A stretch of DNA of 64,000 bases, from NCBI GenBank assembly GCA_964016885.1, contig OZ024742.1, positions 66,774,001-66,838,000 of the forward strand. Reading direction: 5' to 3'. The stretch comes from Eledone cirrhosa. Taxonomy: Eukaryota. The notes beneath the pieces were generated by a model. That model was not told the DNA's origin and did no database searches. It saw only the letters and a program-made list of their open reading frames with translations. Both the position numbers and the translations under genes were made by a program. Within the stretch, counting starts at the first letter, position 1; the number at the start of each line of letters is the position of its first letter. Below are positions 61,871 to 64,000 of this stretch, piece after piece.

Positions 61871-62009
61871 ATATATATATATATATATATATATATATAT
61901 ACACACACACACACACACACACACACACACACACACACACATACATATATATATATATATATATATACAATATTAAATAAATGGAAACTATATTTATAAA
62001 ACCATATTT

Positions 62010-62074
62010 ATTTCATTATATATATTTCAGGGATAGCATATTAACAATATGCTATGCCTTCCTCAGACAAAATA
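62010..62074 (-). ncRNA. minimal type I hammerhead-ribozyme-like motif
   Basis: Minus strand CTGAGGA-AGGCATAGCATATT-gtt-AATATGCTATCCCT-GAAA-TATA-TA. Confidence 0.65.
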
Positions 62075-63438
62075 CAATATAAACAGTTTTATAGATAAAT
62101 AGATTCGACATACCGTAACAAACATCGACTTGTATTTGAAAAGGTTGATTTGGTAGTGAAAAAATTGTACACAGAGAGAAAGAAAGAAAAAAGGAAAGAA
62201 AGACAGAAAACGAAGAAAAAGAAAAAAAAGAAGAAATGCATGGAACAAAATAGAGAGATGGAAAGATAGATAAAGAGAAGAACTTCATGTAAAGAAACAG
62301 AAAAAGATATATATATATATAGAGAGAGAGAGGAAATAGAGATAGATACATATATATAGAAAACTAGGTAGTGGGACGTCTGTTGAATAACGCATCAATG
62401 ATACATTTATTTATTTATTTATTTATTTAGCTCTAGTATTAATGTAAGGGAGATATATGGAGAGAAACCAGCTGTTATATATAGAGAGAAAAAAATATAT
62501 AGAGAGAAAAAAATATAGAGAGAGAAAAAAAATAACCAGACACAGGCGAGGCGTAAAAACCTCTGTTTTAATGTAGAGGTATTAGTATTTACAAAACCAG
62601 CCACTACATTGTAAATATCAGTATTCCTGAATGAGACATGTATCCACAATGTGTGAAAATTAATGATCTTATGTTTAGTTTTTTAAAAAAATTCATATGT
62701 TTATGTGATAATTACAAACATCTATGTGAATCTACATGATCAACTCTGCAAACCCTAAATTCACGGAAAACATTCTCAATGTGGTATAAAAATTTAAGTA
62801 TACATATATGTGTATATATATACACACAAATATATATAGAGTCAATATTACTATTTCTGTCTCTACTCTACAAGATTATCTATCAAGCAAAAATAGAGCA
62901 GATTTCAATATACTAATAAAAATAAAAATATATCAGAAACAAAACTAAAAATAACAATAATAATAATAATAAGTAATAAAATAGAAAACTAAAAAATATT
63001 ACGAAAGAATATTACATATTAAAAATATTAAAAATAAAAATAAAAGTATTAGGAAATACTACAATAATAAAAATAAAATAAACCACAAAGATCAACCCTT
63101 CAAAATTAATTGACAATATATTGCCAAGTTCATTATAAACATCAGAGTCGAAAAACAGATAAAGCCAAAAATTATCTATCAAATCGCATCTAGCAAAGAT
63201 CATTTCAAAAAGTTTAGGATGCCCAATTTGGTCTACATGTGTTCTTATATTTAATATAGAAGTTTATCTAGCGTAACGTTTATTCGAAATATTTGGAGCA
63301 TCAACTTTTAGGGTAGCTTAATTTTTCATGAAGAATGTTTAAATAAAAATAAAAATAAAATAAAAATAAAAAGAATAAAAAGAGAATCAAAGATTTATCG
63401 GCTAGTTTCCCATATAATTATAAATCAAACTAAATATA

Positions 63439-63999
63439 CTACATTTTAAATTTAAATTTATATTTAAACGTTGAGTTTAATCTATGTTTGCAACAACTGA
63501 ATAAATTTGTCCGTAGATTAAGGGAATTTTTAGATTTTAGTATAAAGAATATCTCCTCTGCGCAGAGGTCACATGTCTCAGAGGATGAATTAAAAGGAAT
63601 CCCTCTTGAGACTATATTCCAAGCCGTCGAATATCTAACGTTATCTAGCTTAAGTTGCCATAGTACGCCTGATAGTGCCGTTGAAGATTTTTTGCTTGGA
63701 TCAGTGAAAGAATTCTTGTGGTTATTATAGCGAAGTTTAAATTCCGTCGATGTGGAACCGACGTAGTTAAAAGAATTAGAGTCAGTATTAACATTACAAT
63801 TGTATACTATATTTTTAACTAAGCAGTTGTTATTTAACGGACATTTAGATCTATCTCTACAGTTACATTTGTTAACTTGTATATTATTTATGCTATTATC
63901 ACTAGGTTTTAAGTTCCTATTATTTATTCTATTGATATTTTGTGCTAAATTTTTGGTGGATGAGTAGGTTAATTTTATTGTATGTCTATTGAAAATTGA
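63439..63999 (-). CDS. C-terminal 186 aa of a Penelope-like polyprotein: linker and GIY-YIG endonuclease (5' partial)
   Basis: Hand translation with no internal stop: SIFNRHTIKLTYSSTKNL...KCNCRDRSKCPLNNNCLVKNIVYNCNV...NYVGSTSTEFKLRYNNHKNSF...TALSGVLWQLK...CDLCAEEIFFI...LNLRTNLFSCCKHR...KM*. NIVY...YVG, a conserved R and E, and Cys motifs fit Penelope-type GIY-YIG. Absent from the ORF track, probably because it runs off the window without an upstream start. Confidence 0.92.
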   Translation of the reverse strand, partial: SIFNRHTIKLTYSSTKNLAQNINRINNRNLKPSDNSINNIQVNKCNCRDRSKCPLNNNCLVKNIVYNCNVNTDSNSFNYVGSTSTEFKLRYNNHKNSFTDPSKKSSTALSGVLWQLKLDNVRYSTAWNIVSRGIPFNSSSETCDLCAEEIFFILKSKNSLNLRTNLFSCCKHRLNSTFKYKFKFKM

Positions 64000-64000
64000 G

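What the first reader, a model, noticed from the sequence alone, without database searches (positions are those of the whole stretch)
61968..64000. Unannotated stop-free Penelope GIY-YIG frame linked to the terminus that forms the family B palindromes
Seen: a 186-codon open GIY-YIG frame on the minus strand. About 1.3 kb downstream on the same strand lies a hammerhead-bearing terminus closely matching the arms at 3768-4138 and 31790-32164. Inference: this is an autonomous, possibly young parent element, and the palindromes are its extremely 5'-truncated inverted products or non-autonomous derivatives. That would tie enzyme, ribozyme and (TA)n target into one system.
Basis: partly seen in the sequence, partly recalled or inferred. 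Interest (0 to 1): 0.75.

Follow-up and report, generated by a model that had tools for sequence, protein, structure and literature searches.

The report
Young Hydra-type Penelope, two-site priming
This is a cut-off copy, lacking its reverse transcriptase, of a young and abundant Penelope-like jumping gene of the known Hydra group, and the nearby DNA palindromes are short mirror-image copies from its sister lineages whose ends suggest that the enzyme likely copies one RNA twice, from two start points, onto the two strands of the target.

Summary
The 186-codon GIY-YIG frame and the hammerhead terminus are real and linked: 37 of 38 other copies carry both. The window copy is not the autonomous parent. 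It is cut 17 nt beyond the window edge, has no RT and no start codon, and is fused to an inverted terminus. The family is autonomous and young: 3.86-kb unit, 737-aa RT-EN ORF intact in 9 of 20 full-length picks, 986 exact copies of an EN 25-mer. Its motifs place it in the Hydra clade (Craig 2021). The two palindromes come from sister subfamilies, each with its own RT-EN copies. Arm ends pile up at an Inr/DPE-like site, 24 of 24 exact-centre palindromes carry one 86-nt tail, and both arms nearly always stop or pass together. Best reading: one RNA, two RT start sites, one cDNA per target strand, running off the RNA 5' end. This is inferred; no RNA run was available. The scan noted the same mechanism for other Penelope families in this genome. 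Verdict: new member of a known kind, with a testable mechanism.

The parts
63439..64000 (-). 3' end of the RT-EN ORF: linker, CxCx5C finger and GIY-YIG endonuclease (aa 552-737 of the family protein). The copy is 5'-truncated 17 nt beyond the window edge and joined by a 2-nt microhomology to an inverted 338-nt terminus with tail (L011:3011-3348), followed by (TA)n
62158..63438 (-). long AT-rich 3' UTR with internal simple repeats
   Evidence: contiguous in 17 of 18 copies and 19 of 20 (the 20th has an insert of about 180 nt)
61967..62157 (-). 3' pseudo-LTR terminus without the 86-nt tail (predicted RT start site 1)
62157..62157 (-). predicted transcription start: A of TCA(+1)CT; pile-up site of arm ends
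   Evidence: inferred, no RNA data
62126..62130 (-). DPE-like word at +28 to +32
   Evidence: at +28 in 20 of 34 haplotypes, at +27 in 7; consensus and spacing recalled
62009..62074 (-). minimal type I hammerhead; predicted cut after 62017; stem III is a self-complementary 8-mer without loop (likely forms only in a dimer)
61945..61966 (.). (TA)n target tract at the 3' end; (TA)n also flanks the far end outside the window
3682..4138 (.). palindrome A: two head-to-head termini of a sister subfamily (3768-4138), tail on the left arm only (3682-3767), 7-nt quasi-palindromic centre
31790..32253 (.). palindrome B: two head-to-head termini of an older sister subfamily (31790-32164), tail on the right arm only; left-arm hammerhead core is mutated

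Best explanation
The stretch is a 5'-truncated, RT-less insertion of a young autonomous Hydra-clade Penelope-like element, and it and the palindromes were likely made by twin target-primed reverse transcription of one RNA from two start sites. Shown: unit of 3.86 kb with one 737-aa RT-EN ORF, 3' terminus with hammerhead and an optional 86-nt tail, (TA)n flanks, head-to-head ends with a single tail. Inferred steps: (1) the RNA starts at an Inr/DPE-like promoter inside the terminus; (2) the RT-EN protein, probably a dimer, nicks both strands of (TA)n; (3) each nick primes a cDNA, one before the tail and one after it, both next to a short AU tract that could pair with the TA primer; (4) the two cDNA ends are joined by microhomology. 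If the 3' terminus is the template, the arms are long and unequal (the window copy). If the terminus at the RNA 5' end is the template, both cDNAs run off after about 190 and 276 nt and give the fixed-size palindromes. The hammerhead is read through and seems not to set the ends.
For: Anatomy and youth. Neither arm of the window copy can be a copy of the other: the long arm has the ORF but no tail, the short arm has the tail. One tail in 24 of 24 exact-centre palindromes and in 42 of 46 inverted pairs; two independent site choices would give about half (binomial P about 1e-7 and 5e-9). 28 of 88 unselected arms that reach +3 end at +1 to +3 (22 after dropping 5 duplicated arms and 1 misread arm), against 32 of 59 ending over the next 1,385 nt. 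B-type: 5 of 19 such arms, with no U-tract upstream. Arm pairs as scored: 21 pass/pass, 13 stop/stop, 2 mixed of 36 (Fisher P 4.5e-8); same haplotype in 31 of 36 against 0.36 expected. The same centre occurs on at least 3 haplotypes that also exist as long copies, in both orientations 14:10. In vitro, a Poseidon protein extends both strands, starts at two sites bounding the tail and is predicted to be a dimer (PMC11167929, main text).
Against: No RNA evidence for the start site, strand or cleavage. The Inr and DPE words are short, the haplotypes are related, and 7 of 34 have the DPE one base off and 7 lack it. 4 of 46 pairs break the one-tail rule (3 none, 1 both; two of these appear to be mis-paired with older neighbours). 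In the B sample 11 of 30 arms end inside +4 to +25, which needs resection to explain. Concordant haplotypes also fit two RNAs from one locus; one palindrome (L136) has arms differing at 2 diagnostic sites. Upstream direct repeats of full-length copies mostly extend past +1, so read-through RNAs are also used. PMC11167929 found no RNA-target homology at the Poseidon start site, unlike the AU tracts proposed here.
Confidence: 0.7

Rival explanations
1. The palindromes are a self-propagating non-autonomous family (a palindromic mini-element) copied whole by the Hydra enzyme.
For: Near-identical 371-nt copies in unrelated flanks, three at 100%; one tandem triple (L196); hairpins do get transcribed, as A-to-G-rich copies show.
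Against: Only 24 exact-centre copies among 2,202 matches to an arm motif; centres are heterogeneous; the same junction sits on several haplotypes shared with long copies; the tail switches sides 14:10; the common junction removes the Inr-like word.
Confidence: 0.12
2. Inverted ends arise by fold-back self-priming, possibly on an antisense template, as proposed for rotifer Penelope (PMC3846280, discussion passage).
For: Arms of one insertion are usually identical (20 of 46 with no difference, against 10% between insertions); small palindromes sit at many junctions.
Against: Fold-back on one cDNA cannot add a tail that the long arm lacks (window copy; also L017, L086, L092); it does not predict exactly one tail; arm ends match a sense-strand promoter-like site.
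Confidence: 0.1
3. Twin priming holds, but the pile-up is an RT pause or resection hot spot, not the RNA 5' end.
For: A U-tract precedes +1 in the young subfamilies; self-complementary words lie near the site.
Against: B-type termini lack the U-tract and still show ends at +1 to +3; both arms stop together; DPE-like word at fixed spacing across diverged subfamilies.
Confidence: 0.08

Closest known systems
Hydra clade of C-terminal EN+ Penelope-like elements, including Hydra-1_Obim (Craig et al. 2021, PMC8557442; abstract, passages, sections 11-12, supplement part 2 of 59 and search passages seen)
   Same: Single RT-EN ORF, RW[K/R], DKT, CxCx5C linker, CxxC and CxH around E and N, no CCHH, hammerhead near the 3' end, (TA)n target, inverted 5'-truncated copies, tail at one end.
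   Different: Another family: protein differs widely from Hydra-1_Obim (compared by eye only) and is 39% identical to its best database hits; different hammerhead; unit 3.86 kb against generally under 3 kb, because of a 1.5-kb 3' UTR; tail 86 nt against the usual 30-40; clear direct pLTRs (Hydra-1_Obim listed with none); many intact young copies.
Poseidon of Anolis, PAc (Frangieh et al. 2024, PMC11167929; parts 1-2 of 4 read)
   Same: Tail bounded by two RT start sites; AT-rich target; both strands extended; hammerhead not needed for insertion.
   Different: Other clade; pLTR overlaps the ORF start there, while here the ATG lies 47 nt past the tail; start sites here abut AU tracts. The part read does not link the two start sites to inverted ends.
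Penelope of Drosophila virilis and Adineta vaga (PMC2377424, PMC3846280; passages seen)
   Same: Internal Inr/DPE promoter in the pLTR; Inr-like TCACT; tandem and inverted pLTRs; optional tail.
   Different: Canonical CCHH endonuclease; self-priming on an antisense template was the proposed source of inversions.
Animal non-LTR retrozymes (bioRxiv 10.64898/2026.07.22.740005; listing and passages seen)
   Same: Non-coding hammerhead repeats derived from PLE termini.
   Different: Those are tandem arrays; these are two head-to-head arms with one tail.

Membership tests
Hydra-clade PLE | single ORF with RT and C-terminal GIY-YIG EN | tested here: met
   family: 736-739 aa in 9 of 20 full-length picks; the window copy keeps EN only
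Hydra-clade PLE | RWK motif near the N-terminus | tested here: met
   RWR, a conservative variant also seen in 3 of 8 aligned homologues
Hydra-clade PLE | DKG changed to DKT | tested here: met
   aa 118-120 of P0001
Hydra-clade PLE | CxCx5C linker; CxxC and CxH either side of E and N | tested here: met
   C596, C598, C604; C694, C697; C721, H723
Hydra-clade PLE | no CCHH in EN | tested here: met
   no CxxC between IVY and YVG, no H pair after it
Hydra-clade PLE | hammerhead near the 3' end; insertion in (TA)n | tested here: met
Hydra-clade PLE | RT phylogeny inside the Hydra clade | not tested
   reference proteins were seen in the supplement but no tree was built
Penelope/Poseidon, Neptune, Nematis | CCHH motif in EN | tested here: not met
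Naiad/Chlamys | N-terminal EN, no canonical hammerhead | tested here: not met
   EN is C-terminal, hammerhead present
autonomous copy (this locus) | RT and start codon in frame with EN | tested here: not met
minimal type I hammerhead | CUGANGA and GAAA core with stems I-III and NUH site | tested here: met
   stem III only as an intermolecular duplex; Rfam gave no match
minimal type I hammerhead | self-cleavage | not testable with these tools
   needs a cleavage assay
non-LTR retrozyme | head-to-tail tandem monomers | tested here: not met
   two head-to-head arms

The most novel reading that the evidence does not exclude
Penelope-like elements build their mirror-image ends by using the two internal start sites of one RNA once each, one per target strand, with short AU tracts pairing to the (TA)n primer in a telomerase-like way; the fixed-size palindromes are paired 'strong-stop' cDNAs that record the transcription start.
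Probability: 0.55. Interest if true: 0.7.

Novelty: new member of a known kind. Interest (0 to 1): 0.48.

Why it matters
How Penelope-like elements form inverted ends and the one-sided tail is named as unsolved in PMC8557442. This family gives countable genomic rules (one tail per insertion, both arms stopping together, ends at a promoter-like site) and has naturally intact young ORFs, so the model can be tested in vitro in a clade for which my searches listed no biochemical study. The locus itself is an ordinary truncated copy.

Tried and rejected
EN-only non-autonomous element: first suggested by the shared boundary, rejected when other copies showed RT upstream. Self-propagating palindrome: my first reading, lowered. 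Pfam found no family for the EN frame or P0001. Rfam found no hammerhead among the 150 of 178 rows shown for the window or in the 221-nt scan. Free folding does not give the hammerhead fold; only stem II is stable. The repeat finder was swamped by microsatellites. A-to-G-rich copies were checked as a test of the one-RNA model; the changes lie on one genomic strand and are not mirrored, so they do not test it (output partly cut, most hits were microsatellite noise from a poor B reference). Literature searches listed no paper stating the one-RNA, two-site model or fixed-size PLE palindromes; subscription papers, Repbase entries and bioRxiv supplements could not be seen, so absence from print is not shown. 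No tree, structure or complex prediction was run. One of the 100 listed places was not fetched.

Full report
Observation. The minus strand holds an open frame at 63439-63999 of 186 residues. It aligns with the C-terminal end of about 700-aa RT-EN proteins, with invariant C596, C598, C604, Y617, Y630, G632, C694, C697, E700 and N712 in family numbering. Pfam does not recognise it. About 1.28 kb downstream lies a terminus (61967-62157) with a minimal type I hammerhead at 62009-62074. It is 94-95% identical to the arms at 3768-4138 and 91% over 129 nt to those at 31790-32164.

Beyond the window. The window is G000:C3:66774001-66838000. The element ends 17 nt past the edge. There it is joined by a 2-nt microhomology to an inverted 338-nt copy of the terminus that carries an extra 86-nt tail, then (TA)n. 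There is no RT and no Met before the last residue. This copy is therefore not an autonomous parent.

The family. The 40 best-scored of 2,150 candidates are 98-100% identical over the EN region, and a 25-nt EN word occurs 986 times exactly. Of 18 other copies fetched, 17 run on into the same terminus; L020 is broken by a microsatellite. Several carry 1.68 kb more upstream with RT. The unit, taken from natural copy L016, is 3,860 nt with ATG at 48, stop at 2263, hammerhead at 3668 and tail at 3775-3860. Of 20 copies picked from the best RT-half matches (biased to young, long copies), 9 have an unbroken 736-739-aa ORF and all 20 have the terminus; none of the 4 ATG-bearing copies of the first set is intact. 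A 41-nt terminus word shared with older subfamilies occurs 21,991 times.

Clade. Craig et al. (PMC8557442, section 11) define Hydra by RWK, DKT, a CxCx5C linker, CxxC and CxH motifs, no CCHH, a hammerhead and (TA)n insertion. P0001 meets these, with RWR for RWK. Their supplement lists an octopus member, Hydra-1_Obim, with another hammerhead and a clearly different protein (by eye). Best database hits are 39% identical, among them an Argonauta protein; that the host is a cephalopod is my inference. No tree was built.

Parents of the palindromes. Palindrome A arms are 98-100% identical to at least one terminus in each of 9 long copies whose protein is mostly 94-97% identical to P0001. Palindrome B arms are 90-94% identical to termini of 12 of 12 long copies with protein segments mostly 73-91% identical. 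Both come from sister subfamilies, not from this copy's.

Family or recurrent product? Palindrome A has many near-identical copies in unrelated flanks, which first suggested a mini-element. But only 24 have the exact centre, centres vary by small inserts, and the same junction occurs on at least three haplotypes that also exist as long copies. All 24 have one tail, on either side of the asymmetric centre, 14 to 10. The centre is a 7-nt near-palindrome by which two cDNA ends could anneal; repair of its mismatches would give either orientation (inference).

Where arms end. Of the first 100 listed matches to an arm motif (2,202 in all), 99 were read. Eleven end before +3, 28 end at +1 to +3 of TCA(+1)CT, 1 ends one base further, and 59 pass. 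Dropping 5 duplicated arms and 1 misread arm leaves 22. Of the 59, 32 end over the next 1,385 nt (rough, because of simple repeats). In 30 unselected B-type arms, 5 end at +1 to +3, 11 end further inside and 14 pass (counted by eye). A DPE-like word lies at +28 in 20 of 34 distinct haplotypes, at +27 in 7 and is missing in 7. The consensus words and spacing are recalled; an Inr/DPE promoter is reported for D. virilis Penelope (PMC2377424, passage) and an Inr-like TCACT for Adineta (PMC3846280, passage). I read the site as the RNA 5' end. No RNA run was listed.

Two cDNAs, one RNA. In 46 inverted pairs, 42 have one tail, 3 none and 1 two. In 36 arm pairs, both pass +1 in 21, both stop in 13 and 2 are mixed as scored; by eye L173 is a substitution and L196 is counted three times, giving 22, 11 and 1 of 34. 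Haplotypes agree in 31 of 36. In the window copy neither arm can template the other. Frangieh et al. (PMC11167929) show for a Poseidon protein that both strands are cut and extended, that RT starts at two sites bounding the tail, that a dimer is predicted and that the hammerhead is dispensable. Put together: each start site is used once, on opposite strands. Both start sites here are followed in the RNA by AAAUAU or AUAUAU, which could pair with a TA primer; that paper found no such homology for Poseidon. Two RNAs from one locus with fixed roles would fit equally well.

Earlier notes. After reaching this reading I found that the scan gave the same twin-priming and RNA-start reading for other Penelope families in this genome. 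These are unchecked AI notes and add no support. One gave the lead to A-to-G-rich copies; L178, L200 and L210 show them on one strand only, confined to the paired arms.

Verdict. Real, and a new member of the known Hydra clade. The locus is a dead truncated copy. The value lies in the young intact family and the countable end rules, which make a stated open question testable. Identity about 0.95, mechanism about 0.7, interest 0.48.

Noticed in passing
L178:4031-4423, L200:2827-3143 and 5729-6121, L210:4033-4425: One short asymmetric A-type palindrome carried inside another repeat (shared flanks). Both arms show 12-19 A-to-G changes on the same genomic strand (one arm is cut short), only where the arms pair: likely a fossil of ADAR hyper-editing of a hairpin RNA.
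   Followed up: partly
L011:6574-8397 (outside the window): A second, different Hydra-like element (CxCx5C, EN 30% identical to P0001, broken frame) with its own inverted terminus.
   Followed up: partly
window 45357-46036: EN remnant 32% identical to P0001 beside a 218-nt palindrome (45819-46036) with another hammerhead on both strands.
   Followed up: no
window 9519-9917, 21215-21640, 48736-49396, 2828-3145; L011:3679-4048: Further palindromes; hammerhead-like cores at 9719 (+) and 21413 (-) share one sequence, so another family behaves alike.
   Followed up: no
window 50740-50890 (-) and 51585-51705: Older, diverged termini of the same group; the first has a hammerhead core at 50890.
   Followed up: no
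window 61036-61566 (+): Fragment of a non-LTR retrotransposon C-terminal region (weak DUF6451 hit, below cut-off; RTE-like by recall).
   Followed up: no
L196:450-960: Three palindrome-A centres in a 223-nt tandem, with tail only at one outer end.
   Followed up: no
window 44166 (-), 10827 (-): Other hammerhead-like cores with stable stem II.
   Followed up: no
window 58423-58493 (-): tRNA-like match above the Rfam gathering score (40 bits), possibly a SINE head.
   Followed up: no
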